DNA of 64,000 bases from Gammaproteobacteria bacterium (GTDB lineage Bacteria > Pseudomonadota > Gammaproteobacteria > Eutrophobiales > Eutrophobiaceae): assembly GCA_016179185.1 (NCBI GenBank), contig JACORW010000059.1:1400-65399 (forward strand), written 5' to 3'. Positions 49,420-62,446 of the stretch are shown here, in pieces (the first letter of the stretch is position 1; the number at the start of each line of letters is the position of its first letter). A program made the position numbers and the translations under genes. Under the pieces are notes generated by a model. It searched no databases, was not told the origin of the DNA, and worked only from the letters and a program-made list of their open reading frames with translations.

Positions 49420-49493
49420 TGGGGGATCGTCTAACGGTAGGACAGCGGACTCTGACTCCGCCAGTCTAGGTTCGAATCCTAGTCCCCCAGCCA
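49420..49493 (+). tRNA. tRNA-Gln (anticodon CUG)
   Basis: Manual cloverleaf. Acceptor TGGGGGA/TCCCCCA. D stem GTCT/GGAC. Anticodon stem GCGGA/TCCGC with loop CTCTGAC. T arm CTAGG-TTCGAAT-CCTAG. Discriminator G and encoded CCA. Confidence 0.9.
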
Positions 49494-49945
49494 AAAATGA
49501 AGCGACCCCTCACCCAGGGGTCGCTTCGTTTTTGGCCGTGGGGGGCTCAGGGTACGAGCCTTCGTTCGACAAAATTGTCGGGAACAATTTTGGACAGCGG
49601 CGCGCAGTGCCGCTGGCCCCGCAGGGGCGAGCCCCAGGGATGGGGCGAGCAATCCTAGTCCCCCAGCCAAAAAATGCCACTACCCCGCTGAGGGGTGGTG
49701 GCATTTTTCGTTGGGGGCTCAGGAGGCGAACCTTCGTTCGACAAAATCGCCGGGACAATTTCGCCGGGAGCGAAATTGGACGCCCGGCAGGGCCGCCCGG
49801 GGGGCGCAGACCACGGATGGTCTGCGTCAACAATTTTGGACAGCGGCGCGCAGTGCCGCTGGCCCCGCAGGGGCGAGCCTCAAGGATGAGGCGAGCAATC
49901 CTGGTCCCCCAGCCAAAAAACTCAATGGCCCACCGCGTGTGGGCC
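49475..49945 (+). repeat. three direct copies of the tRNA-Gln 3' end, each followed by its own hairpin, separated by conserved modules
   Basis: AATCCTAGTCCCCCAGCCA at 49475-49493 and 49651-49669. AATCCTGGTCCCCCAGCCA at 49897-49915. Hairpins at 49499-49533, 49674-49708 and 49927-49945. Confidence 0.8.
49499..49533 (+). terminator. rho-independent terminator after tRNA-Gln
   Basis: GAAGCGACCCCtcacccaGGGGTCGCTTC followed by GTTTTT. Confidence 0.8.
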
Positions 49946-49959
49946 GTTCCGGTTTTAAT

Positions 49960-51216
49960 TCAGTCCGGCAGCACAAGGACGAGAAATCCATCGGGCGCCA
50001 GGCGCGTCGCCAGCATCACCTCGTTGATATCCTGGTGCTCCAACCAGGTGCTGGCGCGTTGATGCGCGGGGACACGCCAGAACGATTCGATTTCGTTGCC
50101 CAGGGGCACATAGCGCATGAGCGCCTCAAGCTCCGCGCGAACCGCATGGCGTACGGCAATGGGATTCTGTCCGGCCGGCTGCCGCATGCGCTCGACGGCG
50201 TGCAGCCCGATTGCCAGCCCGAGTTCCCGAAAGGCAAGCCGATGCTCAGCCGGCGTTCGCAGTTCCCCGCTTCGGGCGTAGTACTCGAGACCCGCAAGCG
50301 CCGCCCCGAGCAGGTGCTCAGGAAAATCCCCATCCGACAGCAGACCCTGGTCGATCAGTTGCACTACGCGATAGGCGTCTACCAGGAGTTCGCCGATGCC
50401 GAGTGGATCGGCACTCGCCAAATCGGCGCCTGTTGTCATCTGCGCATACCGCCGGCCAACCTCTCCAAGATCGGGACCGCCGGGCGGTTGGGGGAGCCGG
50501 TCCACCGTGGTGCGCAGTTGCATCGTTGTGATGTAGCCGCCCAGCGGATCATGCTGCCCCATCGAAGGCACAAGCGGGCGCCTGAGATCGATGCTCATCT
50601 TCCAGTACATCCTTGGGGTATGGTTCGCGGAAGGCAGGTAGGTGAAGGCAACATATGCGCTTCCTGCAAGCTCCTGTGCCCAAGATCTGAACCTGGGATC
50701 TCCTGTGGACCGGCTCACCTGATCCAGGGCGTGCATCCACTTCGTCAGATAATGAAAATACTGGCCATCGCGCTCCCACTCCAGACGCTCGTCGTAGGGT
50801 TCGTCTTCGCCGCGCTCCGGGAGGCGCTTGCCTATGCGAAGTCCGCCGCGGGTGGGATGGGCTTCGGCCTCGTCCGTGCCCAGCCCGCTGATCCAGCCCT
50901 TGCGTTGATCGTCGGCCCGGTGCCGGCCGAGCACGTGGTGGACCTGATCGACCAGTCGCAGCGCGAGATCGGTGTAGCGCTGCTCGCCGGTCGCGCGCGC
51001 CAGACCCAAAAAGTTGCACACCGCGAACGCATCGGTCCACAGATAACGCCGCGGCGGGCGATCGGAATCGAGCCCGGTGCGCTGGGCGAAGCTCTGCATC
51101 ATTGCGATGGCCTCCGCGGTACGCGCATCAGATACAGTCATCGATTCCTCTCGTGCGTTTGTGATCGCCGGCCCGAGCGACAGCAGCACGATCACCCCCG
51201 CAACGCGGACCTGCAT
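49960..51216 (-). CDS. exported hypothetical protein
   Basis: 418 aa. Signal peptide MQVRVAGVIVLLSLGPAITNA. Ordinary amino-acid composition, unlike the Arg-rich antisense ORF 49711..51441. Starts 3 nt after the CapA-like stop. Confidence 0.65.
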   Translation of the reverse strand: MQVRVAGVIVLLSLGPAITNAREESMTVSDARTAEAIAMMQSFAQRTGLDSDRPPRRYLWTDAFAVCNFLGLARATGEQRYTDLALRLVDQVHHVLGRHRADDQRKGWISGLGTDEAEAHPTRGGLRIGKRLPERGEDEPYDERLEWERDGQYFHYLTKWMHALDQVSRSTGDPRFRSWAQELAGSAYVAFTYLPSANHTPRMYWKMSIDLRRPLVPSMGQHDPLGGYITTMQLRTTVDRLPQPPGGPDLGEVGRRYAQMTTGADLASADPLGIGELLVDAYRVVQLIDQGLLSDGDFPEHLLGAALAGLEYYARSGELRTPAEHRLAFRELGLAIGLHAVERMRQPAGQNPIAVRHAVRAELEALMRYVPLGNEIESFWRVPAHQRASTWLEHQDINEVMLATRLAPDGFLVLVLPD

Positions 51217-51219
51217 TCG

Positions 51220-52425
51220 TCACTCCAGGCTGAGGCTCGCATCCGCATTGAGCCTTACGCTCACCCCGAATCGCGAGCCTTCCCGATTGAGCGTTTCCGC
51301 GAGCCATTGCGCGTCGGACGGGGCGGCCCGATGCAGGCTGAAACGCTGAATTGTCAACGGAATCATCCTGAGCTGCGCGAGGTTTCCGGTCACCGCATCC
51401 AGCGTTGGGAAGTACATCAGCGTGAGTTCACTTCTGAATGATTCATTTCCGCCGATGCCTTCATAGTCATTGAGAAAATCGCCGGTCCCGTAGAGGATCA
51501 ACTTGCCCCGGTAGATCTCGAACGCCTTGGGGTGGTGGGAGGAGTGTCCATGAATCAAATCAACGGCACCGTGGTCGACAAGGAAATGCGCGAAATCGAG
51601 CTGCGAATCCGGAATGTGATGACCCCAGTTATCGCCCCAATGGACGGAGGCGACAACCACGTCTCCTGCCTTTCTTTCGGTCTTGATCTGATCGGCGATA
51701 TGCTGCGCGCTCCGGAGCGATAAATCGTTCAGCAGCCGGATGCCGGCCTGACCGTTCGAGGCGGCCCAACCCGGGGGAATGCCGCTGCTCGTCACGCCGA
51801 AACCGAATACGAGAATGCGACCCTTGCCGGCAACTTCCTTCACCGCCGGGGCAGAAGCGGACGCGAGGTCGCGCCCGGCGCCGACACCGGTCACGCCAAT
51901 TCGCCGCAAGGTTTCCAGAGTTTCGGCGAGACCGGCGTAGCCCCAGTCCAGCACATGATTGTTTGCAAGCGACGCCACCTCGACGCCGGCGGCCGCGAGG
52001 CAAGCGGCGTTGGCGGGGTGCATACGGTAGTGGATGCCCTTGCCGTGCCAGGGATCATTGCTGGCCGTGACGCTCGTTTCGAGATTGATCAGGCGAAGAT
52101 TGGGCGCCGCGCGTTGCAGCTCGTCGAGTGCGTCACCCCACAGATAAGCGCAACTTACCGGTCGAGGGATTGGACCGTTGGCGCGCTCGGCGAGCGCGAC
52201 GTAATCACGCGCGTCCTTCACCCAGGGTTCATGCAATTCCGGATCGCCGGGGTGCAAGAGTACCTGATCGATTCCCCGCCCGGTCATCACGTCACCGCAT
52301 AGAAACAACGTAATTTGACCGTCCTGGTTCGTCGGTTCCGCGTGCGGGTGCTGCATCACGCCGGCAAGCAGCAGGAGTGCGGCCAGCCGGCTAAATACGT
52401 GTTCCGAAATATGATACAAGTACAC
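51220..52425 (-). CDS. CapA/PGA_cap-family metallophosphoesterase-like protein
   Basis: LFLCGDVMTGRG, LANNHVLDWG and IHGHSSHHPK motifs. ORF 51220..52611 trimmed to GTG 52425 because upstream codons are MITE sequence. The start remains uncertain (ATG 52356 is an alternative). Confidence 0.78.
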   Translation of the reverse strand: MYLYHISEHVFSRLAALLLLAGVMQHPHAEPTNQDGQITLFLCGDVMTGRGIDQVLLHPGDPELHEPWVKDARDYVALAERANGPIPRPVSCAYLWGDALDELQRAAPNLRLINLETSVTASNDPWHGKGIHYRMHPANAACLAAAGVEVASLANNHVLDWGYAGLAETLETLRRIGVTGVGAGRDLASASAPAVKEVAGKGRILVFGFGVTSSGIPPGWAASNGQAGIRLLNDLSLRSAQHIADQIKTERKAGDVVVASVHWGDNWGHHIPDSQLDFAHFLVDHGAVDLIHGHSSHHPKAFEIYRGKLILYGTGDFLNDYEGIGGNESFRSELTLMYFPTLDAVTGNLAQLRMIPLTIQRFSLHRAAPSDAQWLAETLNREGSRFGVSVRLNADASLSLE

Positions 52426-52570
52426 AATGGGCAGTCCGATCCCATGTTGGCAGACACGCCGTAAATACGTCCATGTAGGCTTGAGTGCCGCTGTCCATGC
52501 GGCACACAGTCCGCCAACATGGGATCGGACCACCCGTCTGTTCTGCAATTCGGAGCAGCTATTTAGAGGC
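52390..52570. mobile_element. MITE-like element (family F, copy F3)
   Basis: Inner inverted repeat GTCCGATCCCATGTTGGCAGAC / GTCCGCCAACATGGGATCGGAC. Core ACGCCGTAAATACGTCCATGTAGGCTTGAGT. The outer arms resemble those of F2. Overlaps the 5' end of the CapA-like ORF. Confidence 0.65.
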
Positions 52571-52843
52571 GGCCGCACTTGCACGCATCCCGCGACTTCG
52601 CCGTGCCACACTCCGCTTCCCGCAGAATCCGGATCAACTGCTCCTCGGAATATCGCTTCCGCATTTGCAAGTCCTCCATCATTAAACTACCACGGACCGT
52701 GATATCGGCTCGAAATTATCATTCTGGGCCGGCGAAGTCCGGCAATGATGCAGGCGCGGCTGGCGGCTTGAAGTCGATGCCGGTCAAATGGGTAGCTCGG
52801 TCAGCTGACACCCGGAGAATCGGGGCCCGGGGTATGGGCCGCC

Positions 52844-54025
52844 TTACTGCGCCAGGCGATTGTATTTTCTGAGCACCGCCCGCAGCTTGTCGTGGGGCAG
52901 CGCAATCACCTTGTGATCGTCCGCGCCGGTCATGGTCTCCGCGGCGACCATGGCGTTGACGATGGCTTCTTCCGTCGCCTGCACGGTACCGGCCAACACC
53001 GGGTCCATCCGATCGTTCGGAAGCATCGTGATCTGCGTCAGTCCCTGCGAACTGGCCGCGCCGGAGTTGGCAGTCGAGAACGCGATGAATATATCGCCGG
53101 AACCGTTGCCGGAGAGACTCCCCATACGGCCAAGCCCCAGGGACACGCGCCGCGCCAACCGTTGTAACTGGTGGGCGACCAGCGGCGCATCGGTGGCCAC
53201 GACGACGATGATGGAACCCCGTTCGTCCTGCGAAAATTTCCCGCCGTACGCGGGATACTCGGGGATCTCGACGCCCACCGGCACTCCCGCAATGCGCAGG
53301 TTCGGCCGCAGGCCGTAATTGCACTGGACCAGCACGCCGACGCTATAAGCACCGGGCTTTTCCGCGACCTTCCGGGATGCGGTACCGATGCCGCCCTTGA
53401 ACTCGTTGCAGATCATGCCCGTCCCGCCGCCGACCGATCCCTCCGGAACCGGCCCGGCGGCGGCGGAATCGATCGCATGAAACACGTGCTCCGGCTTCAC
53501 ATGGAAACCATTGATGTCGTTGAGCCAGCCGTCCCATGTCTCCGCGACCACCGGCAGCGACCACCAGTACCCGGTCGGATCCGGTTCCTGGCGCGCGACG
53601 CGCCACTGTATGACGGCATCCCGTACCACGCCGACGCTGTGGGTGTTCGTGATCATTACCGGGCCTTCCAGGAATCCGGACTTTTCCACCCACGTGGTGC
53701 CCGTCATCTCGCCGTTGCCGTTTTGCGAGAACCAGCCGGCGAAGACGGGATTGCTCATGGAGTCTTTTCCACGCGGGAGAATCGCCGTGACCCCCGTTCG
53801 GACCGGGCCATTGCCGACCTGGAGTTTCCCTTCACCGGATATCAATGTCGTATGGCCGACGGTGACGCCGGCCACATCCGTGATCGCATTCAACGCCCCC
53901 GGCGTACCGTCGAAAAGCACGCCAAGAGCCCGCGCGCGCGGCTTGGAACCCTCGTGGTCCTGTGCCATAGCCGGGATCGCGCCGGACAGCAGCGCCACTA
54001 CACAGATTGCGCCGATCATTCTCAT
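52844..54025 (-). CDS. exported DmpA/peptidase S58-family aminopeptidase
   Basis: Signal peptide MRMIGAICVVALLSGAIPAMA. ITDVAGVTVGHTT and GVTAILP are typical of the family. ATG 54025 forms an ATGA overlap with the upstream stop (track start GTG 54037). Confidence 0.85.
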   Translation of the reverse strand: MRMIGAICVVALLSGAIPAMAQDHEGSKPRARALGVLFDGTPGALNAITDVAGVTVGHTTLISGEGKLQVGNGPVRTGVTAILPRGKDSMSNPVFAGWFSQNGNGEMTGTTWVEKSGFLEGPVMITNTHSVGVVRDAVIQWRVARQEPDPTGYWWSLPVVAETWDGWLNDINGFHVKPEHVFHAIDSAAAGPVPEGSVGGGTGMICNEFKGGIGTASRKVAEKPGAYSVGVLVQCNYGLRPNLRIAGVPVGVEIPEYPAYGGKFSQDERGSIIVVVATDAPLVAHQLQRLARRVSLGLGRMGSLSGNGSGDIFIAFSTANSGAASSQGLTQITMLPNDRMDPVLAGTVQATEEAIVNAMVAAETMTGADDHKVIALPHDKLRAVLRKYNRLAQ

Positions 54026-55731
54026 GGGACGCTCCACAAGGCGTCGTATACCCTCTCGCCACCGATGTAGGCACGTTTGACGCGGGTAGCGTGCACCTGC
54101 GTGACCGGCACTTCGAATGGGTTCTGATTTACGACGATGACGTCCGCCAGCATGCCGGGCTCAATGCGGCCTACCAGGTGCCCGGCACCCGCATATCTCG
54201 CCGCGTTCACCGTAAACATGTCGAAGGCCTGTTTCAGCGTGATGGCTTCATTCTTGCCGTAGGAATCGGGGCTGCCACCAGGTCTTTCGCGCGTAACAAG
54301 GGTTTCCAGACCGATCCACGGACTCGCAGAGGGTACTACCGACCAGTCCGAACCCGGCACCACGAGCGCGCCCGACTCAAGCAGCTCCTTCACCGGCCAC
54401 ACCCGGTCCATGCGCGCATCGCCGATGGCGCGGATGATGTCGTTGTTAATGGGGCTCGGCGACCACAGATAGGGAGAGACTTCGAACGTCGCGCCGATTT
54501 CACGGGCACGGCCCACGTCCGCCTGCGCTACGAACGTGCAATGGGCCACGTCGTGCATCAGGCCGCTGAAGCCGTTGGCCGTGCGCGCCGCCTCGATGGC
54601 GTCGAGGCTGGCGCGCACGGCGGCGTCCCCGGCGGCGTGAAATTTTACCGCGAGACCCATGCGGTCGAAGCGCATCACTGCCTCGTTCAGCACCTTCGGC
54701 TCGACCAGCAGCATGCCGAAGCGGGCAGCATCGTCGGTGCGCCCCACCATCTCGCTGCCGTAGGGTTCCAGCATCGCAGCCGTGTGGCTGTCCGTGGGCA
54801 CGCCGTCGAGTACGATCTTGACGCAATCCGTATCCACGCGGTCCCGCGCATAGACATTACGCGCGGCTACGGTGGCCTCTTTGGCCGGATCACCCGGGGC
54901 CCAGGAAATGCACAGGCGCGCCCGCTGCTTCAATTCGCCCGAGTCCGCCAGTGCCGCGTAGGCGCGGATTTCCCTGTCGCCGCCCGCGGCAAAACCCATG
55001 TCCGCTTCCGTGAACGACGTGATGCCGTGGGAAAGCATTTCGTGCGTCGCCCACTTGATGGCCGCGCGAACTTCCTCGTCCGTGGGCGGCGGCACGGGCT
55101 TCGCCGCCAGCACGAGGGCCTCCTCGCGGAACACGCCCGTGGGTTCGCCGCGGCTGTCGCGCTCGATGATGCCGCCGGGCGGGTTGGGCGTGTCGCGGGT
55201 GATGCCCGCCGCCCTGAGGGCCGGTGTGTTGGCCAGCGAACTGTGGCCGCTGGTATCCACCAGCAGCACGGGATTGTCCGGCGACACGGCATCGAGCATG
55301 CCGCTGTCCGGCACGCGCCCGAGCGCCGAGGCATCCCATTGTCCGCCCGTGATCCAGGCGCCGGGCGCGGCACGGGCCGCGCAGGCTCTCACGCTGGCTT
55401 GCAGTTGCTTCAGGTCGGAGCCTTGCTCGATGCGGCAGCGCTGCTCACTGAGGCCCGCATACAGTGGGTGCACGTGGGTATCGTGCAGGCCCGGCAGCAG
55501 CGTGTCGCCGCGCAGGTCGTCCACCTGGGTGCGCCAGACGCGGTACACGTTCACCTCCTCCGCCGTACCCACGGCGATAATGACACCGTCGCGGACGGCC
55601 ACGGCTTCTGCCCAGCCGGAGGGCGTCCTGACCCTGCCGCCGGTGAGGATAAGCTCCGCGGCCAGGTGCGTCGCCATGGCCGGCACGGCCACCACTGTGG
55701 CCATGACCCAGGCGATGAGGTGCCTTTTCAT
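54022..55731 (-). CDS. exported amidohydrolase (Amidohydro_3/YtcJ-like)
   Basis: ORF trimmed to ATG 55731, 7 nt after AAGGAGG. Signal peptide MKRHLIAWVMATVVAVPAMA. Metal-binding LLPGLHDTHVHP. Confidence 0.85.
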   Translation of the reverse strand: MKRHLIAWVMATVVAVPAMATHLAAELILTGGRVRTPSGWAEAVAVRDGVIIAVGTAEEVNVYRVWRTQVDDLRGDTLLPGLHDTHVHPLYAGLSEQRCRIEQGSDLKQLQASVRACAARAAPGAWITGGQWDASALGRVPDSGMLDAVSPDNPVLLVDTSGHSSLANTPALRAAGITRDTPNPPGGIIERDSRGEPTGVFREEALVLAAKPVPPPTDEEVRAAIKWATHEMLSHGITSFTEADMGFAAGGDREIRAYAALADSGELKQRARLCISWAPGDPAKEATVAARNVYARDRVDTDCVKIVLDGVPTDSHTAAMLEPYGSEMVGRTDDAARFGMLLVEPKVLNEAVMRFDRMGLAVKFHAAGDAAVRASLDAIEAARTANGFSGLMHDVAHCTFVAQADVGRAREIGATFEVSPYLWSPSPINNDIIRAIGDARMDRVWPVKELLESGALVVPGSDWSVVPSASPWIGLETLVTRERPGGSPDSYGKNEAITLKQAFDMFTVNAARYAGAGHLVGRIEPGMLADVIVVNQNPFEVPVTQVHATRVKRAYIGGERVYDALWSVP

Positions 55732-55810
55732 CTGCGTGCCTCCTTTGTCCGGGTGCAATGATCACGGCCGGTGGCGGCGCCAATCTCCGCAGTCTCATGC
55801 GTTGCCGCCG

Positions 55811-56743
55811 TCATGGATTTTCCCTTACGTGATTCTCGACACTGTACTTGAGAAAGAAGTCCGCTTCGGCATGGTCGGGATACAGTTCGATCATTTTTTC
55901 CATGGCTTCCTGCCTGGTCTTCGCCACTGACGTAATACGCGTGTAGTTGTCAATGTATTGGACCATCTCGTCGAAAAGTTCCATGCCGGCAATGTCGCCG
56001 TGGCCGGGATACACGGTCGGATTGGCAGCTGCATACCGGGCTTTCAGCCTGATCAACTCCGCCCGCCAGTTTGCGATGTTCTCTCTGCTGATGTCGTCAC
56101 CCTGCCAGTGATGAACCTTGTTGTATCCCAGGTCCGAAAGAAACAGGGCATTCAGATCCCTGCTATACACGGTCGTCGTGTAATGGGCTTCCGCAGGCAG
56201 GTAGTCGGTGGCAAGCTCCAGCGTGCCTCCGCCCTCCAAATTCAGCGTATTCCCGGGCAATACTTGGATGGTATTTTCGTAATCGAAGCCCCCGGGGTTG
56301 CCGGCCGCCTTCGGCCGCAGGGCCGGTTCCAGCGCAGGCTCGGCACTGGTCTCGCCGCCGGAGTCCATATAGATCGCGTACACCTTGATGTCCCGCCTTA
56401 TGTCTTCGCTGGCGACGACAATTTTCGCATCCGGAAATTCGTCGCGGAAAAGCGGCATGCCCGTGAAGTGATCGGTGTGCCCATGGGTAATCAGGACATG
56501 TGTCAAAGGCAGTTTCCTGGCCCTTATTGCCTCAACCAGTTTCCTGGCATCATCGGTTTTTCGCAGCACGTCTATGACGACAAGCGAGGTGCCATTGGAA
56601 ACGATGAACGAATTGACCGTCGCAAACTGGCCCTTGAATACTTCCACTTCAAGACTGCCTGCATTCCCGGCCCGCGATGAAGAGAATCCGGCGATGGCCA
56701 GCACTGCCGCAACCACATGAATGATCGGTCGCAGCGAATTCAT
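55811..56743 (-). CDS. exported MBL-fold metallo-hydrolase
   Basis: Signal peptide MNSLRPIIHVVAAVLAIAGFSSS. HxHxDH motif in VLITHGHTDHFTG. Confidence 0.85.
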   Translation of the reverse strand: MNSLRPIIHVVAAVLAIAGFSSSRAGNAGSLEVEVFKGQFATVNSFIVSNGTSLVVIDVLRKTDDARKLVEAIRARKLPLTHVLITHGHTDHFTGMPLFRDEFPDAKIVVASEDIRRDIKVYAIYMDSGGETSAEPALEPALRPKAAGNPGGFDYENTIQVLPGNTLNLEGGGTLELATDYLPAEAHYTTTVYSRDLNALFLSDLGYNKVHHWQGDDISRENIANWRAELIRLKARYAAANPTVYPGHGDIAGMELFDEMVQYIDNYTRITSVAKTRQEAMEKMIELYPDHAEADFFLKYSVENHVRENP

Positions 56744-57612
56744 GTACCGCCTTTCCCGGGTCGGTTCACGTCTTTGATATTGAGATAGAGGGTCGCGCCA
56801 CCCTCACGGTAACGGTCATCCATGCGGCCGCCGGCACGCAACCCCTCCATGACGTCATGAAGGTACCTCACCGCGTCGGCAGCGGAAGCCGCGTTGATCT
56901 CGAACACTGTCAGGTAGCGCGGCACTGCGATGGGGTCGGTCATGACCACGCGATGCAACTCGTAGCGCGTGGCCCGTCGCACACCCCGGGCCTGCAACAA
57001 GGCCGGCAACAGCGTGCCATCGTACCAGGCGTTGAATTCCCTTCTGGCCCGGACACCGGCGCAGCAATCCACCCTGACCAGGTACAGATAGGGGTTGCCG
57101 TCCGACGACCGGGAGTTTGGCGCGTTCACGCCTGGCGCGAGACGGCGGAAATACAATCGCTCGGTGACTTCGAGCAAATCGGTGGAGCGGCCGGTGTTGT
57201 CCATCTTCCGGGCCAGCAGCAGCATGTTGATGATGGTGCCGTCAATGTCTTCGCTATCGATGTCGTAGAGCGCGACGAACTTGCCCTCGTCCGGTTGCAG
57301 ATCGGCGGACGGAAACTCCGGCACCGCCTGGCCCTGCCCCCGCCGCGCCCGCATGTAGCCAGGAACCGTGAATACGTCCGGCAGATCAATGTCGTCGTAC
57401 CAGTGATTGAATTCTGCTTCGCGCGCCGGATCCTTGTTGTTCGTCACGACCATCATCAACCAGTCCCGGCCCGGCGACGCGGAGTCGCCTGCCCCCGCAA
57501 AAGTCCAGCACGGCAACAACATCCCCAGGCAACAGCGCACAAGGAATTGCGCCACGAATGATTTCCCGGACCGAGAGTGGCGGGGCTGCGTGATCAGCAG
57601 TAAGCGAATCAA
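56740..57612 (-). CDS. exported hypothetical protein with two tandem ferredoxin-like (EthD-like) repeats
   Basis: Internal duplication: EFNHWYDDIDLPDVFTVPGYMRARR versus EFNAWYDGTLLPALLQARGVRRATR. ATGA overlap with the MBL gene. Confidence 0.6.
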   Translation of the reverse strand: MIRLLLITQPRHSRSGKSFVAQFLVRCCLGMLLPCWTFAGAGDSASPGRDWLMMVVTNNKDPAREAEFNHWYDDIDLPDVFTVPGYMRARRGQGQAVPEFPSADLQPDEGKFVALYDIDSEDIDGTIINMLLLARKMDNTGRSTDLLEVTERLYFRRLAPGVNAPNSRSSDGNPYLYLVRVDCCAGVRARREFNAWYDGTLLPALLQARGVRRATRYELHRVVMTDPIAVPRYLTVFEINAASAADAVRYLHDVMEGLRAGGRMDDRYREGGATLYLNIKDVNRPGKGGT

Positions 57613-57646
57613 GATCAGGCTGCGGCCCTGATCCGGCCCGCAGGGA

Positions 57647-60367
57647 CTACTGCCATCGGTAGTTCAGTTCGATGGCCCAGGTAAGCGGGCGCCCGTAGGT
57701 TTTTACGTATCCGCCGACGCCATCAAACGTCGTGCTGACGAGATATTCTTCATCAGCCAGATTCTTGCCGACAAATGCCACGTTCCAGCGCCCATCCTGG
57801 GCGCCAACCTGCATACGGGCATTGAATACACCGTAACTGGGCACCGAGAAAATGGCGGTGTCAACCGGATGTCCCAGCGAACCGGCATGGTTCAGGTCAT
57901 CGCGCCACGAGTAATCGAGCTGCACAACTCCGAGCAGGTCGTACCCCAGCGGACGCTCGTAGCGCCCCTGGATGAAGTAGCTGAATTCAGGGGCATAAAC
58001 ACGATCCAGGCCGTCGTAGGGGATCTCGGTGACGAAGTCCTGGGCGGTGTACGAATCCTCCGACTCGAGCTCCGTATCCAGCAGCGCGAATGCGCCGCTC
58101 AGGCTGAGTCCGGGTAGGGCCTGCGGCAGCCAGGTTAGATCCATCTCGAAACCGAGATGGTCAGCATCCGCTATATTTGTCAGGAACGTCAGCACCGTGC
58201 CGGTCAACGGCAACAATTCGGCGTTGAAACCCTGCACGTCCGAATAGTCGTAATAGAACGCGGCGCCGTTGACGCGCAGGGTACGATCCATCCAGTCGGA
58301 CTTGAAGCCAATCTCGTAGGACCAGACGGTTTCCTCCTGATATGCATCGAGCTGACTCGGGTCAAACGTGAAGCCGCCATAGAAGCCGCCGGACTTGAAC
58401 CCGCGCGTGATCTTTCCGTACAGCAGCAGATCCTCGAATGGCGTGAAATCCACACCCACGTGTCCGGCAAGGACCTTGTCGAGATCGTAGTCGCGGTTCA
58501 CGCCCTGAACCAGCGGGACCGGGAAACCGGCGAAGCTCAGAATATGGAAGCCGTTGCGCAGCGTCTTGTCTTCATTGGTGTAACGCAGCGACCCATGCGC
58601 TTTCCACTCGTCATTGAATTCATATCCGAGTTGCCCGTACAACGCCCAGGAATCCGTTTTTTGCACCAAGCCACGGTGGGCGAGCACGTCCGGCGTGCCG
58701 AAAATGAGCGGGTTGTCCGGAAACGTAAAGAACCGATCCTCGTCCAGTTCGTCCTCGGCGTAGACGAACCCGGCCAGCCACGACCATGGACCGTCGTTGT
58801 TCGAGATCAGGCGCAGTTCCTCGGACCACGATTCAATCGGCGAGTGATTGAGTTCGTGTCCCCCAAAAAGTTGTCCGCCGTCGTAGTCGTAGACCTGCCG
58901 CGTGTCATAATCAATGTATCCGGTGATGGATGTTGTCGTGGCAAAACCCAGATCCCAATCTATGCGCCCGGTTACGGATACCCATTCGTTGTCGAGTGTG
59001 TTGACCGGGTTAGCCAGCACAATCTTGCCGTCGTCGGACTGATCGGAGGCCAGCGGACCCAGGGGCCGCCCCAGCACGGCGTTGGTCAGCGTTGCCCAGT
59101 GCGCGCAGGTGTCGTCGTCCTGGCGCCCCGCCAGTACAGCGGCGCAGATCCCACCGGTCGCCAGGTCATAAATGCCCACGCCCTGGCCCAGCGGCGTTTC
59201 CGAGTTGTCCTCGCCTACATCCGCCTTTATCAAGACAGTGAATCGGTCATTGGGCTTGAACAGCAACTGGCCGCGGAAGGCCCATAGATCGGCCTCGCCC
59301 CAGTTGTCATTGCCTGGTGTCGCCAGCGTGTCCTGATAGCCACCGCCCTGGCTGGTCATCGCTGACGCGCGGAATGCGACACTATTCGTAATCGGCCCAC
59401 CGAATGCCCCTTCGACGTTCCAGGCGTCATAGCGGCCATAGGAACCGGTCACGTAACCGTCATGCCCCTCGAACGATGGCTTCACAGACACGATGCGCAC
59501 GGCGCCGCCGGTGGTGTTCCGACCATACAGTCCGCCCTGCGCGCCCTTCAATACTTCTACGCGTTCGATGTCGTACATGCCGATGCCGCCCATGGCGTTG
59601 GACGTCAGGTAAAACTCGTCGTAGTAGATGGCCGCTGCCGGCGTGTTGTTGGCATTGAAATCGGCAAGTCCGACACCGCGGATAATCCACGTCGGCTGGC
59701 TGGACATGGCGCGGTCGTCAAACAGCGCAACCCCGGGGATATATTCAGTGAGCTGGCGCAGATCGCGTATTGCGAGGTCCTCGATTTGCTGGCCGCCAAA
59801 TGCCGTTATTGCGATTGGCACATCCTGCACGCTCTCCGCGCGCTTTTGCGCGGTGACGATGATTTCCTCCAGTTCCGCGGGGGCCTCCTGTGCGAGACCC
59901 GAGGACACGATAAACACGGAAGCAAGAAAGGCGCTCACACCTCCAAAGAAACTGATTCTGTCATGGGACATGTGCTGGTTCTCCCCGGGCATTTGAAAAT
60001 CGGTCTGATCGGCGATCGTTCTGATCCTCAGTACGCCATCCGGACTGGAGATCGCTTCCAGTCCCGAATTGGCGAGAAGCAGCCGAAGCGCCTCGTCCGC
60101 GTCGTATTCCCCTGTAACTGCATTCGTGGTAAAGCGCAGGAACAGGTCATACGGAAACAGGACCTGCCGCCCGGCCTGCTCGGCGTACAGTTTCAAACCG
60201 TCGGGGGCCGGTGTCTGCGGAATGTCGAACCGCAACGCGGCCGATACGATCGGGCTGACCGCGATCAAGCCGCTGATCAGCAATTCCCGCAATGTCCTGC
60301 GGCGATCACCGCACCACCCACAAAGCAAACCGAACAGGGCACAATGAGGGGAAGACCTGTGTGCCAC
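57647..60367 (-). CDS. TonB-dependent transducer (STN signalling domain + plug + barrel)
   Basis: 906 aa. STN-like FDIPQTPAPDGLKLYAEQAGRQVLF. Plug start EEIIVTAQKRAESVQDVP. The barrel runs to ...LNYRWQ. An internal ATG at 59971 begins a signal-peptide-like segment. Confidence 0.88.
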   Translation of the reverse strand: MAHRSSPHCALFGLLCGWCGDRRRTLRELLISGLIAVSPIVSAALRFDIPQTPAPDGLKLYAEQAGRQVLFPYDLFLRFTTNAVTGEYDADEALRLLLANSGLEAISSPDGVLRIRTIADQTDFQMPGENQHMSHDRISFFGGVSAFLASVFIVSSGLAQEAPAELEEIIVTAQKRAESVQDVPIAITAFGGQQIEDLAIRDLRQLTEYIPGVALFDDRAMSSQPTWIIRGVGLADFNANNTPAAAIYYDEFYLTSNAMGGIGMYDIERVEVLKGAQGGLYGRNTTGGAVRIVSVKPSFEGHDGYVTGSYGRYDAWNVEGAFGGPITNSVAFRASAMTSQGGGYQDTLATPGNDNWGEADLWAFRGQLLFKPNDRFTVLIKADVGEDNSETPLGQGVGIYDLATGGICAAVLAGRQDDDTCAHWATLTNAVLGRPLGPLASDQSDDGKIVLANPVNTLDNEWVSVTGRIDWDLGFATTTSITGYIDYDTRQVYDYDGGQLFGGHELNHSPIESWSEELRLISNNDGPWSWLAGFVYAEDELDEDRFFTFPDNPLIFGTPDVLAHRGLVQKTDSWALYGQLGYEFNDEWKAHGSLRYTNEDKTLRNGFHILSFAGFPVPLVQGVNRDYDLDKVLAGHVGVDFTPFEDLLLYGKITRGFKSGGFYGGFTFDPSQLDAYQEETVWSYEIGFKSDWMDRTLRVNGAAFYYDYSDVQGFNAELLPLTGTVLTFLTNIADADHLGFEMDLTWLPQALPGLSLSGAFALLDTELESEDSYTAQDFVTEIPYDGLDRVYAPEFSYFIQGRYERPLGYDLLGVVQLDYSWRDDLNHAGSLGHPVDTAIFSVPSYGVFNARMQVGAQDGRWNVAFVGKNLADEEYLVSTTFDGVGGYVKTYGRPLTWAIELNYRWQ

Positions 60368-60376
60368 AGAAATCTG

Positions 60377-61444
60377 CTAGTGCGCCCGGGCGACTCTCTG
60401 CAACTCGAAGCTGTCGGCACCGATCTGCCGCACTTCAATGGCAAAATTCTGCTTCAGCGAGGTCAGCAGGCCGGCGATATTGTCCGAGCGGAAGTAGCCG
60501 CCGACCCGGATTGCAGCCGTTTCCGCGTCGGCAATCCGGATCTTGAGCGGTGTGTAGCGGCTGTATTCGTCCACAACCTCCTGCAGCGTATTGCCATCGA
60601 AGGCCAGTATCTTCTGTTGCCACAACAGCTTGCGTGCGATGGCCTGGGGCTCTATCTCCCGTACTTCCTCCACCCCCGGCTTGCTGAACTGGGCCACCTG
60701 CCCGGCTCGCAACATTACCGGCTCGAACCGTGCTGCAGGGTCCCCGGGAAACGAGGCGTTGTCCCGCTTGACCTGCACCAGTCCCTCGGCAACTGTTACC
60801 TCGACACTGTCGCCCAGCTTTTGCACGCTGAACGCGGTCCCCATTGCGGAGATCTCCGTGCCGTCCACGGTGACGACAAAAGGCGCCTGCTCGTCGCGCG
60901 CCACATCGAAGTACGCCTCTCCCTGCAACAGCAGAATGCTGCGGCGGGATGGAGAGATTTCCACCTGAATGCGCGTTGCCGTATTCAGATTGATCACCGT
61001 GCCGTCCCCGAGTTGCACCACGTCGTTGGCACCGATCCGGGTCTCGTGGATTTGCGGCCCGGCGGGCCGGAGGACCGCAGCAGTGACTGCCGCAGGGATG
61101 GTACCGGGCACAGCCGGCGGACGCATGAACAGGGCGATCCCCAACATGGCCAACCCCGCTGCCAGCGCCGGCAACACCATGCGACCCAACACGGCGCGGC
61201 GCGGAACCGGATTTTCCAGGCTGAGGACTTCCGACAGACCCGCCAGCACCTCCATCCGATCCCAGACCCGCGCTGTTTCCAGCAGGATCCGGCGGTGATA
61301 GTCCGAACGGCCGGCCCATTCCCTCAAACTGCGCGCCTCGTCCGGGGTCAAGGGACCGTTCTCCAGGCGCACGACCCATGCAGCCGCCTGTTCCTGCAAC
61401 AATTCGCGGCGCGTGAAACCCAGGATCCTGTTACGACTTGCCAT
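60377..61444 (-). CDS. FecR-family anti-sigma factor / sensor
   Basis: 355 aa. N-terminal anti-sigma region (AAAWVVRLENGPLTPDE), one TM helix and a periplasmic FecR domain (GEAYFDVA). Confidence 0.88.
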   Translation of the reverse strand: MASRNRILGFTRRELLQEQAAAWVVRLENGPLTPDEARSLREWAGRSDYHRRILLETARVWDRMEVLAGLSEVLSLENPVPRRAVLGRMVLPALAAGLAMLGIALFMRPPAVPGTIPAAVTAAVLRPAGPQIHETRIGANDVVQLGDGTVINLNTATRIQVEISPSRRSILLLQGEAYFDVARDEQAPFVVTVDGTEISAMGTAFSVQKLGDSVEVTVAEGLVQVKRDNASFPGDPAARFEPVMLRAGQVAQFSKPGVEEVREIEPQAIARKLLWQQKILAFDGNTLQEVVDEYSRYTPLKIRIADAETAAIRVGGYFRSDNIAGLLTSLKQNFAIEVRQIGADSFELQRVARAH

Positions 61445-62000
61445 CTTTCCTTACACCTCCGCGGCCATCCATGGTTCCACCCAGATATCCCCTTTCTTGC
61501 AGGTAAACCGTGCACCGCGCCAGGCCCTTGGCCAAATGCTGGTTCGCGGTGCTGATCGCGATATTCAGCCTTTCGGCAATCTCTTCATGGGACAGACCGT
61601 AGACCTTTTTCAGGATCAGCACCCGCCGGCACTGCGGCGGCAGCGCCTGCACGGCTTCAAAGAATATGCTCAATTGCTCATGAACTTCGTACTGCGCATC
61701 GAGGGCAGTCTTCTCGTCCATGACCTCTGACAGGCCGAAATCTTCTAGTTGTCCCGTGATCTTGTTGGCATGCAGGGCCAGGTGTTTCAAAGCCAGGTTT
61801 CGTGCCGTCACGAAAAAATATGCCCTGGGATCCAGTATGGGTGACTTCCCGTCTGCCTCCAGCACACGCACATACACTTCCTGAGCGATGTCGTCGACAT
61901 CCTCCGGCCGCCTCAGATAGCGGCGGATCACCGACTTCAGGGCCGCACGGCACTCGAAATAAATCGCTTCCAGCCTGGATCTGGATGTACCTGAGTCCAT
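61431..62000 (-). CDS. ECF (sigma-70 group IV) sigma factor, FecI-like
   Basis: 189 aa. Region 2 DVDDIAQEVYVRV and region 4 LSHEEIAERLNIAISTANQHL. 14-nt overlap with fecR-like gene. Confidence 0.88.
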   Translation of the reverse strand: MDSGTSRSRLEAIYFECRAALKSVIRRYLRRPEDVDDIAQEVYVRVLEADGKSPILDPRAYFFVTARNLALKHLALHANKITGQLEDFGLSEVMDEKTALDAQYEVHEQLSIFFEAVQALPPQCRRVLILKKVYGLSHEEIAERLNIAISTANQHLAKGLARCTVYLQERGYLGGTMDGRGGVRKDGKS

Positions 62001-62068: not shown

Positions 62069-62446
62069 TCACTCGAACAGCCCGAACAGCGCGATACGCC
62101 ACTCATTCAACGCCGGACCCGGCGGTGTCGTGAACTCGATGCCGGCGTTGTACCGGCCTGGCGTACCCCCTCCGGCATCATTCACGGCGCGGCACCATGC
62201 CACACGCCCGCTGTGCTGGAAGCGTTGTCCGTCGCGCCGCAACTGCACCTCCAGCATCACGCTGTCGTTGACTTGCAGCACAAACGTCAGTTCCAGCCGC
62301 GCGCCGCGCAATGAAATGTCGCCGCTGCCGCAAGGAGTGGCGTCATCCGCCACGGGCCCGCCGGCCACAACGAGCAGGGAAACAGTGATTACAGCTTCGG
62401 CCGGAAAGCGCGTATCGCGGCGTTTTTCCGCGTGTTGTTCCGTCAC
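62069..62446 (-). CDS. PilZ-domain protein
   Basis: 125 aa. EKRRDTRF (RxxxR) and DISLRGA (D/NxSxxG) c-di-GMP-binding motifs. Confidence 0.7.
   Translation of the reverse strand: MTEQHAEKRRDTRFPAEAVITVSLLVVAGGPVADDATPCGSGDISLRGARLELTFVLQVNDSVMLEVQLRRDGQRFQHSGRVAWCRAVNDAGGGTPGRYNAGIEFTTPPGPALNEWRIALFGLFE

What the first reader, a model, noticed from the sequence alone, without database searches (positions are those of the whole stretch)
49960..62000. ECF sigma / FecR / TonB-dependent transducer operon followed by a string of exported hydrolases: candidate surface-signalling-controlled uptake and degradation locus for an unknown peptide-like substrate
- **Gene order on the minus strand:** FecI-like sigma (62000-61431), FecR-like sensor, STN-containing TonB-dependent transducer, a tandem ferredoxin-like-repeat protein, an MBL-fold hydrolase, an Amidohydro_3 enzyme, a DmpA/S58 aminopeptidase, then (after a MITE) a CapA-like metallophosphoesterase-fold protein and a 418-aa unknown.
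- **Packing:** Junctions are overlaps or gaps of at most 52 nt, including two ATGA overlaps.
- **Export:** Every enzyme has a signal peptide.
- **Regulation:** I see no Fur box upstream of the sigma gene and no siderophore genes, so the system does not look iron-related.
- **Hypothesis:** The enzyme set includes S58 peptidases, which act on beta- or D-amino-acid N-termini, an amidohydrolase, an MBL hydrolase and a poly-gamma-glutamate-associated CapA fold. This suggests periplasmic breakdown of an unusual amide-linked compound imported through the transducer, which also signals its presence. I know of no characterised system with this composition. The substrate assignment is inference only.
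Basis: inference. Interest (0 to 1): 0.6.

Follow-up and report, generated by a model that had tools for sequence, protein, structure and literature searches.

The report
Surface-signalling uptake operon with periplasmic hydrolases
A groundwater gammaproteobacterium carries an outer-membrane importer with its own sigma/anti-sigma switch next to three exported proteins that travel together in many bacteria, so this is probably an uptake-and-breakdown unit for an unidentified organic compound. The last three "hydrolase" genes of the proposed string are unrelated neighbours.

Summary
The nine minus-strand genes, their families, two ATGA overlaps and the MITE are real.

**Six genes form a supported unit:**
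- ECF sigma
- FecR
- STN-bearing TonB-dependent transducer
- a tandem ferredoxin-like protein
- an MBL-fold hydrolase
- an Amidohydro_3 enzyme

**Evidence for the unit.** I collected 63 loci from other genomes, each anchored on an MBL homologue.
- Amidohydro_3 is adjacent in 54-55, a TonB-dependent receptor in 45 and the ferredoxin-like protein in 28.
- Nine also carry an ECF sigma, with FecR and STN transducers confirmed in several.
- The S58 peptidase, the CapA-like protein and the 418-aa protein occur in none of them.

**The other three genes.**
- S58 is a true DmpA/BapA-family enzyme. It is 70-83% identical to mostly acidobacterial proteins but only 48-50% to those of relatives, so it was probably acquired horizontally. 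It joins the operon through an ATGA overlap.
- The CapA-like and 418-aa genes lie beyond about 420 nt that holds a MITE and a transposase scar.

**Substrate and regulation.** The substrate is unknown. In sphingomonads the module sits among amine-dehydrogenase, aldehyde-dehydrogenase, PaaK-like ligase and deacetylase genes, which points to organic amide catabolism rather than iron. No Fur box was found, but that test is uninformative here.

**Verdict:** a new member of a known kind, of moderate interest.

The parts
61431..62000 (-). ECF (FecI-like) sigma factor, 189 aa
   Evidence: Pfam Sigma70_r2, r4_2 and Sigma70_ECF. All NCBIfam FecI models score below cut-off. The same-genus homologue is 60% identical.
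60377..61444 (-). FecR-type anti-sigma/sigma regulator, 355 aa; the only FecR in the genome
   Evidence: Pfam DUF4880 18-56, FecR 134-223, FecR_C 280-339. A hydrophobic segment at aa 89-107 is read. PF04773 gives a single hit in the genome.
57647..60367 (-). TonB-dependent transducer, 906 aa (leader, STN, internal signal-like segment, TonB box, plug, barrel)
   Evidence: Pfam Plug, barrel and STN. It is 80% identical to the same-genus orthologue and at most 32% identical to any other module TBDT.
60002..60235 (-). STN signalling domain (aa 45-122)
   Evidence: Pfam STN E 1.2e-4, 22.3 bits, below the cut-off. pN 0.26 against pS 0.77 versus the L107 orthologue indicates purifying selection.
59888..59953 (-). 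Internal signal-peptide-like hydrophobic segment (aa 139-160) between STN and the TonB box
   Evidence: Hydrophobicity scan. It is present in the window and in the L107 orthologue, and absent from the STN transducers of L126, L128, L152, L154, L157 and L166.
56740..57612 (-). Exported tandem ferredoxin-like (dimeric alpha/beta-barrel superfamily) protein; likely start 57555 or 57522
   Evidence: No Pfam or NCBIfam hit. AF2 pLDDT 90.5 with two beta-alpha-beta-beta-alpha-beta units. Foldseek hits include anthrone-oxidase-like 5f9p, chalcone isomerase, sulfur oxygenase reductase and chlorite dismutase. Found in 28 of 63 module loci.
55811..56743 (-). Exported MBL-fold binuclear hydrolase, 310 aa
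   Evidence: Pfam Lactamase_B. H87-x-H89-x-D91-H92, H211, D216/D217 and H248 are conserved in at least 97% of 60 homologues. The nearest solved structures are B1 beta-lactamases, but only at 38-44 bits.
54022..55731 (-). Exported Amidohydro_3 (YtcJ-like) amidohydrolase, 569 aa from ATG 55731
   Evidence: Pfam Amidohydro_3, 285 bits. H86-x-H88, K305, H365, H393/H397 and D462 are conserved. Adjacent to the MBL in 54-55 of 63 loci, median gap 133 nt.
52844..54025 (-). Exported DmpA/BapA-family (S58) aminopeptidase; its ATG overlaps the Amidohydro_3 stop (ATGA)
   Evidence: Pfam S58, 402 bits. DmpA 1b65 scores 352 bits and BapA 3n2w 332 bits. It is 70-83% identical to mostly acidobacterial proteins, against 48-50% in relatives. 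Absent from all 63 module loci.
52563..52664 (-). Remnant of an IS3-family transposase OrfA N-terminus (33 codons)
   Evidence: Read. Pfam HTH_Tnp_1, 17.3 bits, E 0.006, model positions 4-28.
52400..52570 (.). MITE-like dispersed repeat overlapping the 5' end of the CapA-like gene
   Evidence: Dozens of 72-97% identical copies on many contigs of the genome. The lower boundary was not mapped below 52400.
51220..52425 (-). CapA-like (PGA_cap, metallophosphoesterase-fold) protein; start uncertain
   Evidence: Pfam PGA_cap, 260 bits. Only weak similarity to the MslH epimerase. Next to a unk418 homologue in 1 of 80 loci.
49960..51216 (-). 418-aa exported protein of a widespread unnamed family with a predicted (alpha/alpha)6-barrel fold
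   Evidence: No Pfam hit. The 80 homologues kept are 56-75% identical (556 relatives were found in all), across Gammaproteobacteria, Myxococcota and others. AF2 pLDDT 80; Foldseek gives cellobiose 2-epimerase/GH76-like matches, TM about 0.5.
49927..49945 (-). Terminator-like hairpin 15 nt after the 418-aa gene

Best explanation
**What the locus is.** It is a composite of three units.

**(1) The functional core is six genes.**
- An ECF sigma factor, a FecR-type anti-sigma regulator and an STN-bearing TonB-dependent transducer form a cell-surface-signalling set.
- They are followed by three exported proteins: a tandem ferredoxin-like barrel protein, a binuclear MBL-fold hydrolase and a binuclear Amidohydro_3 amidohydrolase.

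**Inferred mechanism.**
- An organic compound too large or too scarce for porins binds the transducer.
- Binding is relayed through the STN domain to FecR and releases the sigma factor, which raises transcription of the operon.
- The compound is pumped into the periplasm. There the MBL enzyme opens an ester, lactone, lactam or similar bond, and the amidohydrolase cleaves an amide bond.
- The barrel protein acts as binder, isomerase or cofactor-less oxygenase.
- The products enter general metabolism.

**(2) The S58 DmpA/BapA-type aminopeptidase** is a horizontally acquired gene. It was spliced onto the 3' end of this operon and is translationally coupled to it. It may extend the operon's product range in this strain only.

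**(3) The CapA-like and 418-aa genes** are an independent pair beyond a MITE and an IS scar.

**Shown versus inferred.** Shown: gene families, intact catalytic motifs, conserved gene linkage, and recurrent coupling to sigma/FecR/STN. Inferred: co-transcription, signalling, periplasmic location and substrate class.
For: **Linkage.**
- In 63 loci anchored on MBL homologues, Amidohydro_3 is present in 54-55 (median gap 133 nt), a TBDT in 45 and the barrel protein in 28. All four occur together in 23.
- The loci come from Gammaproteobacteria (including Halieaceae, Porticoccaceae and Steroidobacteraceae), Sphingomonadales, Caulobacterales and Gemmatimonadota.
- Controls: 80 S58-anchored loci contain a TBDT once and no MBL or Amido3. 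80 unk418-anchored loci contain none of them.

**Linkage survives rearrangement.**
- In the same-genus genome, sigma-FecR-TBDT is divergent from unk290-MBL-Amido3, and the flanks differ.
- L128 has sigma-FecR-TBDT(STN)-Amido3-unk290-MBL on one strand.

**Coupling to surface signalling is recurrent and probably independent.**
- Nine loci carry ECF sigma homologues.
- FecR and STN are confirmed by Pfam in L128 and L166, and STN also in L126 and L152.
- The window's TBDT is at most 32% identical to those transducers.

**Enzymes look active.** The HxHxDH set, and the HxH/K/H/H/D set, are conserved in at least 97% of homologues.

**Context points to catabolism.** Recurrent neighbours elsewhere are Hist_deacetyl (24 loci), aldehyde dehydrogenase (16), PaaK-like ligase (15), TetR (13) and TTQ amine dehydrogenase heavy and light chains (10).

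**S58 is an add-on.** There is an ATGA overlap. Its closest relatives sit with class-III aminotransferase, GcvT-like, S9 peptidase and amino-acid permease genes.
Against: - There is no transcript data; only DNA runs exist for this organism.
- No substrate is identified, and no characterised homologue exists for any of the three core enzymes.
- The locus has no inner-membrane transporter for the products.
- The STN domain scores below Pfam's cut-off.
- The STN domain is separated from the TonB box by a signal-peptide-like hydrophobic segment. That segment could act as a stop-transfer or as the real export signal, so signalling by this particular transducer may be impaired or atypical.
- The transducer is not orthologous to the TBDTs of most other module loci, so its ligand need not be the same.
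- The module is patchy: it is absent from two of three other genomes of the genus and from nearly all of the family.
Confidence: 0.6

Rival explanations
1. Iron piracy. The system imports a ferric complex of an amide- or hydroxamate-type xenosiderophore. The periplasmic hydrolases destroy the ligand to release iron, as esterases do for enterobactin.
For: - Sigma, FecR and STN transducer are the classic architecture of iron-siderophore signalling (PMC11637429, PMC7186176).
- The TBDT's best NCBIfam model is TonB-siderophore (116 bits).
- Deacetylase and amidohydrolase chemistry could in principle cleave hydroxamates (inference).
Against: - The TonB-siderophore score is far below its cut-off of 223.5, and the best-scoring stretch (aa 183-346) covers only the plug region and the start of the barrel.
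- No Fur box was found, though this is weak evidence.
- The locus has no reductase, periplasmic binding protein or ABC importer.
- In other lineages the module has TetR regulators and sits with aldehyde dehydrogenase, CoA ligase and amine dehydrogenase genes, which are carbon and nitrogen catabolism genes.
Confidence: 0.12
2. All nine genes form one surface-signalling-controlled system for an unusual peptide-like polymer (beta- or D-peptides, poly-gamma-glutamate). S58 and CapA would be core enzymes.
For: - All nine genes are on one strand.
- S58 is translationally coupled to Amidohydro_3.
- No T-rich terminator was found before the hairpin after the 418-aa gene.
- S58 is a real DmpA/BapA relative.
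Against: - S58, PGA_cap and unk418 are absent from all 63 module loci.
- The module is absent from 160 loci anchored on S58 or unk418.
- About 420 nt holding a MITE and a transposase remnant separate S58 from PGA_cap.
- unk418 has a carbohydrate-enzyme-like (alpha/alpha)6 fold.
- The same-genus genome has the six-gene core without the other three.
Confidence: 0.07
3. Decayed or rewired signalling. The transducer is made from the internal start (M126 or M133) as an ordinary receptor, or the STN part is cut off or retained at the inner membrane. Sigma/FecR would then no longer sense the ligand, and the locus would be a plain TBDT utilisation operon with a vestigial regulator.
For: - The internal segment looks like a complete signal peptide followed by a TonB box. 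It is kept in the same-genus orthologue and absent from other STN transducers.
- The nearest paralogues in the genome all align from aa 143-166 onward, meaning they lack STN.
Against: - The STN region is kept in frame, with pN much lower than pS across two species.
- Sigma and FecR are intact, and sigma, FecR and the TBDT are 60%, 59% and 80% conserved in the congener.
- It is the only FecR system in the genome.
Confidence: 0.15

Closest known systems
FecIRA-type cell-surface signalling (E. coli ferric citrate; Pseudomonas Pup, Fox and Fiu systems)
   Same: Three components in the same order: a FecI-like ECF sigma, a FecR regulator (DUF4880, one transmembrane segment, FecR, FecR_C) and a TonB-dependent transducer with an N-terminal STN domain (PMC11637429, PMC7186176, PMC2729926).
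   Different: - No FecI, FecR or FecA equivalog model is reached.
- There is no Fur box and no iron-transport genes.
- Downstream genes are exported hydrolases.
- An extra signal-peptide-like segment lies between STN and the TonB box.
Bacteroidota polysaccharide-utilisation loci with ECF sigma/anti-sigma and SusC-like transducers (own knowledge)
   Same: A non-iron nutrient locus. A TonB-dependent transducer signals to an anti-sigma/ECF pair that induces the transporter together with degradative enzymes.
   Different: - The host is a proteobacterium.
- There is no SusD partner and no glycoside hydrolases.
- The enzymes are MBL-fold and amidohydrolase-superfamily.
- The SusC/RagA model scores 34 bits against a cut-off of 368.
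DmpA (Ochrobactrum anthropi) and BapA (Sphingosinicella xenopeptidilytica) S58 aminopeptidases
   Same: The S58 gene scores 352 and 332 bits against 1b65 and 3n2w over the full length. It keeps the G|S processing context ...ERG-SIIVVVATDAP.
   Different: Its specificity is untested. The gene is not part of the conserved module. Its closest relatives lie in a different context of aminotransferase, GcvT-like, S9 peptidase and permease genes.
Beta-lactam catabolism in soil Proteobacteria (beta-lactamase + amidase + phenylacetate catabolon; Crofts et al. 2018, as summarised in PMC9730888)
   Same: It combines a beta-lactamase-superfamily hydrolase with amide hydrolases. In 15-16 related loci a PaaK-type ligase and an aldehyde dehydrogenase are also present. 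The nearest solved relatives of the MBL are subclass B1 enzymes.
   Different: - Similarity to B1 enzymes is only 38-44 bits, over about 75 residues.
- The NCBIfam bla_subclass_B1 model scores 45.8 against a cut-off of 200.
- The motif is HxHxDH (His at position 121). From my own knowledge this is typical of B3 and non-lactamase MBL hydrolases, not of B1.
- The enzyme families of the published pathway differ.
- No activity data exist.
Dimeric alpha/beta-barrel (ferredoxin-like) superfamily: anthrone oxidase-like, bacterial chalcone isomerase, sulfur oxygenase reductase, chlorite dismutase
   Same: The 290-aa protein has the same two-repeat barrel fold (Foldseek E 3e-8 to 1e-6, TM 0.5-0.63).
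   Different: - Sequence identity is 9-14%.
- No His or Cys is conserved across the family that could bind haem or iron.
- The protein is exported.
- No sequence family model matches it.

Membership tests
Cell-surface signalling system (FecIRA type) | ECF sigma factor of the FecI-like group encoded next to the regulator | tested here: met
   Pfam Sigma70_r2, r4_2 and ECF. FecI-like models appear among the hits but score below equivalog cut-offs.
Cell-surface signalling system (FecIRA type) | FecR-type regulator with an N-terminal anti-sigma domain, one transmembrane segment and a periplasmic FecR/FecR_C part | tested here: met
   DUF4880, FecR and FecR_C. The hydrophobic segment at aa 89-107 is read.
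Cell-surface signalling system (FecIRA type) | TonB-dependent receptor with an N-terminal STN signalling domain directly preceding the TonB box | tested here: inconclusive
   STN is found at E 1.2e-4 but at 22.3 bits, below the 28.4 cut-off. A signal-peptide-like hydrophobic stretch lies between STN and the TonB box.
Cell-surface signalling system (FecIRA type) | Ligand-dependent induction of the transducer operon through the sigma factor | not testable with these tools
   No RNA runs exist for this organism.
Iron-regulated siderophore uptake system | Fur box at the sigma promoter and linked iron-transport or siderophore genes | tested here: not met
   The best Fur-consensus match upstream has 9 of 19 mismatches. 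No such genes are in the locus. Caveat: no site with 4 or fewer mismatches occurs anywhere in the genome, so the consensus may not apply.
Class B (subclass B1) metallo-beta-lactamase | Score above the NCBIfam bla_subclass_B1 or bla_class_B_core cut-offs | tested here: not met
   45.8 bits against 200, and 36.2 against 100. PDB B1 hits are partial, at 38-44 bits.
MBL-fold metallo-hydrolase superfamily | Lactamase_B domain with the HxHxDH motif and distal His/Asp ligands | tested here: met
   Pfam 52.5 bits. H87, H89, D91, H92, H211, D216/217 and H248 are conserved.
Amidohydro_3 (YtcJ-like) amidohydrolases | Full-length Amidohydro_3 match with HxH, Lys, His, His and Asp metal and catalytic residues | tested here: met
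   284.8 bits over 472 of 472 model positions. The residues are conserved.
Peptidase S58 (DmpA/BapA) | Full-length S58 domain and close similarity to characterised members | tested here: met
   402 bits. 1b65 scores 352 bits and 3n2w 332 bits. Autoprocessing and specificity were not tested.
CapA / PGA_cap | PGA_cap domain, plus linkage to capBC-type poly-gamma-glutamate genes | tested here: inconclusive
   The domain is met at 260 bits. No capB or capC is nearby, so a poly-gamma-glutamate role has no support.

The most novel reading that the evidence does not exclude
The conserved trio is a periplasmic catabolic or detoxifying route for a lactam-containing natural product, such as a beta-lactam or a related strained-ring amide.
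- The B1-related MBL opens the ring.
- The Amidohydro_3 enzyme removes the acyl side chain.
- In genomes that carry the PaaK-type ligase and aldehyde dehydrogenase next door, the aryl-acetate product is burnt.
- In this genus and in Steroidobacter-like bacteria, the cell senses the compound at its surface through an independently recruited sigma/FecR/STN switch.
Probability: 0.08. Interest if true: 0.75.

Novelty: new member of a known kind. Interest (0 to 1): 0.4.

Why it matters
TonB-dependent uptake loci for non-iron, non-carbohydrate substrates are poorly charted in Proteobacteria.

**What is new here.** The analysis defines a compact, widely distributed module: a TBDT, a tandem ferredoxin-like protein, an MBL hydrolase and an Amidohydro_3 enzyme. 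None of its proteins belongs to a characterised family.
- Different lineages control it with TetR regulators or with cell-surface signalling.
- Culturable carriers exist, so it can be tested directly: Sphingosinicella xenopeptidilytica, S. microcystinivorans, Sphingomonas sp. Root720 and Rhizorhabdus histidinilytica.
- Finding the substrate would name three protein families and add a non-iron ligand to proteobacterial surface signalling.

**A cautionary point.** Tight operon packing, here an ATGA overlap, can include a recently acquired gene that is not part of the conserved system.

Tried and rejected
- **Transcript evidence.** Only three DNA runs from groundwater metagenomes hold the sequence and there are no RNA runs, so co-transcription could not be tested.
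- **Fur box.** The E. coli consensus finds nothing in the window or the genome. The only Fur-family hit in the genome is weak (28.7 bits). I treat this as uninformative, not as proof of iron independence.
- **Promoter search.** The consensus scan found no sigma-70-like promoter on the minus strand. Aligning the regions upstream of unk290 in the window and in L107 showed no conserved motif.
- **Literature.** Full-text searches for the gene combination returned nothing relevant.
- **Sequence searches of solved structures.** Amidohydro_3 matched only uncharacterised hydrolases (3igh, 3icj). The 418-aa protein matched nothing.
- **Chimeric assembly as the reason for the acidobacterial-like S58.** Rejected, because independent contigs span both junctions at even depth.
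- **PGA_cap/unk418 as a conserved pair.** Rejected: they are adjacent in 1 of 80 loci, and in neither of two relatives that carry a unk418 homologue.
- **The window TBDT as an orthologue of the other module TBDTs.** Rejected: identity is at most 32%, and it forms its own group with L107.
- **Not run.** Large protein-database searches (search for homologous proteins, the search of protein representatives) were left out. Pfam and NCBIfam already gave no family name, so the answer would not have changed the verdict.

Full report
**Observation**

The window is contig C35 of a 2.58-Mb, 86%-complete gammaproteobacterial MAG. It is present in three groundwater metagenome runs.

Nine ORFs lie head to tail on the minus strand between 49960 and 62000. 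Pfam and NCBIfam identify them as follows:
- An ECF sigma factor (61431-62000).
- A FecR-type regulator (60377-61444) with DUF4880, FecR and FecR_C.
- A 906-aa TonB-dependent receptor (57647-60367) with Plug, barrel and a sub-threshold STN domain (22.3 bits against 28.4; E 1.2e-4).
- A 290-aa ORF with no family.
- An MBL-fold protein (55811-56743).
- An Amidohydro_3 enzyme (54022-55758; best start ATG 55731, after AAAGGAGG).
- An S58 peptidase (52844-54037; best start ATG 54025).
- A PGA_cap protein (51220-52611; start uncertain).
- A 418-aa ORF with no family.

The packing claims hold:
- sigma/FecR overlap by 14 nt, and the FecR-TBDT gap is 9 nt.
- unk290/MBL and Amido3/S58 each share an ATGA.
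- PGA_cap-unk418 are 3 nt apart.
- The MBL-Amido3 gap is 52 or 79 nt, and the TBDT-unk290 gap 34-124 nt, depending on the start chosen.

The S58-PGA_cap interval (about 420 nt to GTG 52425) contains two elements:
- A repeat at 52400-52570 with dozens of copies across the genome. This confirms the MITE.
- A 33-codon fragment resembling the N-terminus of an IS3-family transposase (52563-52664).

Signal peptides could only be judged by eye. They are convincing for MBL, Amidohydro_3, S58 and the 418-aa protein, plausible for the 290-aa protein, and doubtful for the CapA-like protein.

Logan contigs of three runs span the Amido3/S58 and S58/MITE/PGA_cap junctions at even depth. The arrangement is therefore not an assembly artefact.

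**What belongs together**

I tested conservation of the neighbourhood from three anchors.

*Anchor 1: S58.*
- The 80 closest S58 homologues are 70-83% identical and mostly from Acidobacteriota, with some from Steroidobacteraceae.
- None has any of the other eight genes within 10 kb, apart from one unrelated TBDT.
- Their own conserved neighbours are a class-III aminotransferase (65 loci), a GcvT-like protein (51), an S9 peptidase (42) and an amino-acid permease (33).
- Within the window's own family the best S58 relatives are only 48-50% identical.
- S58 is therefore a recent, probably horizontal, acquisition. It is nonetheless a genuine DmpA/BapA relative (352 and 332 bits to 1b65 and 3n2w).

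*Anchor 2: the 418-aa protein.*
- It belongs to a large unnamed family. The 80 kept loci are 56-75% identical, from Gammaproteobacteria, Myxococcota and others.
- PGA_cap is adjacent in one of these loci, and nothing else from the window appears.
- Two relatives that carry it lack PGA_cap next door.

*Anchor 3: the MBL protein.* This gave the opposite picture. In 63 loci from other genomes:
- Amidohydro_3 is present in 54-55 (median gap 133 nt).
- A TBDT is present in 45.
- The 290-aa protein is present in 28.
- All four occur together in 23.
- S58, PGA_cap and the 418-aa protein occur in none.
- The taxa include Halieaceae, Porticoccaceae, Steroidobacteraceae and many unnamed Gammaproteobacteria. 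They also include Sphingomonadales (Sphingosinicella xenopeptidilytica, S. microcystinivorans, Sphingomonas sp. Root720 and Y57, Rhizorhabdus histidinilytica), Caulobacterales and Gemmatimonadota.

The linkage survives rearrangement:
- In the same-genus genome (G002 = L081/L107), sigma-FecR-TBDT is divergent from unk290-MBL-Amido3. Identities are 60-81%, the flanks are unrelated, and there is no S58.
- In a same-family genome (G032 = L106/L118), unk290-TetR-TBDT-Amido3 lie on one strand with MBL divergent, and there is no sigma or FecR.

**Coupling to surface signalling**

- Nine MBL-anchored loci carry an ECF sigma homologue and six carry a FecR homologue.
- Pfam confirms sigma and FecR in L128 and L166. 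It detects STN in the TBDTs of L128, L166, L126 and L152: above the 28.4-bit cut-off in L166 and L152 (37.6 and 40.2 bits), just below it in L128 and L126 (28.0 and 25.2 bits).
- L128 has sigma-FecR-TBDT-Amido3-unk290-MBL as one string.
- The module's TBDTs fall into two main groups at 40% identity or more. The window's transducer and its L107 orthologue form a separate pair, at most 32% identical to any other.
- The hydrolase trio has therefore been joined to a sigma/FecR/STN switch at least twice, with different receptors.
- This argues for a functional tie.
- This is the only FecR in the genome. All 14 other TBDT paralogues align from residue 143-166 onward, meaning they lack STN.

**The proteins**

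*The 290-aa protein.*
- An alignment of 23 homologues (A1) gave an AlphaFold model of pLDDT 90.5 with two beta-alpha-beta-beta-alpha-beta units.
- Foldseek places it in the dimeric alpha/beta-barrel superfamily. Hits include anthrone-oxidase-like 5f9p, bacterial chalcone isomerase, sulfur oxygenase reductase and chlorite dismutase, with TM 0.5-0.63 and 9-14% identity.
- No His or Cys is invariant, so a haem or iron site is unlikely. It may be a binder, an isomerase or a cofactor-less oxygenase.

*The MBL protein.*
- It keeps H87-x-H89-x-D91-H92, H211, D216/D217 and H248 in at least 97% of 60 homologues.
- Its nearest solved relatives, by sequence and by profile, are subclass B1 beta-lactamases. 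The match is only 38-44 bits over the first 75 or so residues, and every NCBIfam lactamase model is far below cut-off.
- It is an MBL-fold hydrolase of unknown specificity, not a demonstrable beta-lactamase.

*The Amidohydro_3 enzyme.*
- It keeps the binuclear set H86-x-H88, K305, H365, H393/H397 and D462.
- Its only solved relatives are uncharacterised.

*The 418-aa protein.* It is predicted to be an (alpha/alpha)6 barrel, weakly like cellobiose 2-epimerases and GH76/GH88/GH105 enzymes (pLDDT 80, TM about 0.5). That fold has no evident link to amide chemistry.

**Substrate clues**

Other recurrent neighbours of the module are:
- a histone-deacetylase-like amidohydrolase (24 loci);
- an aldehyde dehydrogenase (16);
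- a PaaK-type AMP ligase (15);
- TetR regulators (13);
- in sphingomonads, both chains of a TTQ amine dehydrogenase with a MauD-like redoxin (10), extra Amidohydro_3 paralogues and a second TBDT.

That context reads as catabolism of an amide-linked, possibly arylalkylamine-containing, organic compound. The route would be hydrolysis, then amine oxidation, aldehyde oxidation and CoA activation. This is inference, and the window carries only the trio.

An iron role is not favoured:
- There are no iron-transport genes.
- No Fur box was found.
- The partners in other lineages are catabolic genes.

The Fur test is weak, however, because the consensus finds nothing anywhere in the genome.

**A caveat on signalling**

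- Between the STN domain (aa 45-122) and the TonB box (EEIIVTAQKR) lies a 22-residue hydrophobic stretch. It is preceded by Met126/Met133 and followed by LAQ|E, and it looks like the signal peptide of an ordinary receptor.
- The L107 orthologue has it too. The six other STN transducers of the module do not.
- The STN part is kept in frame and under purifying selection (pN 0.26, pS 0.77), so it is translated.
- How such a precursor is exported, and whether it still signals, is open. Another first-stage note (e1-2772962) raised the same point.

**Conclusion**

- It is wrong in extent and in the substrate logic. That logic rested on S58 and CapA, which are not conserved parts of the system.
- The unit is an uncharacterised but widespread member of the known class of TonB-dependent utilisation loci. 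Interest is moderate (0.4).
- The most novel reading still open is a lactam-type natural-product catabolic route with a B1-related MBL (PMC9730888 for the known pathway). I put it at about 0.08.

Noticed in passing
window 59888-59992: The transducer has a complete signal-peptide-like segment with a possible internal start (Met126/Met133) between the STN domain and the TonB box. It is conserved in the same-genus orthologue and absent from other STN transducers of the module. This suggests that an STN-coding piece was fused in front of an ordinary receptor gene.
   Followed up: partly
L001-L080 (S58-anchored loci, mostly Acidobacteriota): The closest S58 homologues sit in their own conserved neighbourhood of class-III aminotransferase, GcvT-like protein, S9 peptidase and amino-acid permease. 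That looks like a beta-/unusual-amino-acid peptide catabolic cluster.
   Followed up: partly
L136, L138, L139, L142, L165 and related sphingomonad loci (e.g. L142:1300-20800): This is a large island. It combines two TBDTs, three Amidohydro_3 paralogues, the MBL, a histone-deacetylase-like amidohydrolase and the ferredoxin-like protein. It also holds a TTQ amine dehydrogenase (heavy and light chains, MauD-like redoxin), an aldehyde dehydrogenase and a PaaK-type ligase.
   Followed up: partly
window 49960-51216 and L187-L266: The 418-aa protein belongs to a widespread family with no Pfam or NCBIfam model. The 80 kept members are 56-75% identical across Gammaproteobacteria, Myxococcota, Rokubacteria and others. 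The predicted fold is an (alpha/alpha)6 barrel with many invariant residues.
   Followed up: partly
window 52400-52570 and many contigs of the genome: A MITE-like repeat of about 170 bp has dozens of copies, mostly about 80-90% identical. Here it overlaps the only start codon that gives the CapA-like protein a hydrophobic N-terminus.
   Followed up: partly
window 49420-49945: tRNA-Gln (49420-49493, + strand) is followed by internally repeated segments (92-nt repeats at 96% identity) just downstream of the locus. Sequencing depth there is about 15 times that of the flanks, which suggests a multi-copy or cross-organism element.
   Followed up: no
window 57613-57646: A GC-rich hairpin (CTGCGGGCC...GGCCGCAG) with no T-run lies directly after the transducer stop codon. 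It may be an attenuator or an RNA-processing site between the transporter and the enzyme genes.
   Followed up: no
window 62069-62446: A PilZ-domain protein gene lies 68 nt upstream of the sigma gene on the same strand, with no predicted terminator between them. An S-adenosylhomocysteine hydrolase gene lies further upstream.
   Followed up: no
L106:9240-9923, and 12 other module loci: In lineages without sigma/FecR, a TetR-family regulator sits inside the module. The same enzyme set is therefore controlled by different regulator types.
   Followed up: partly
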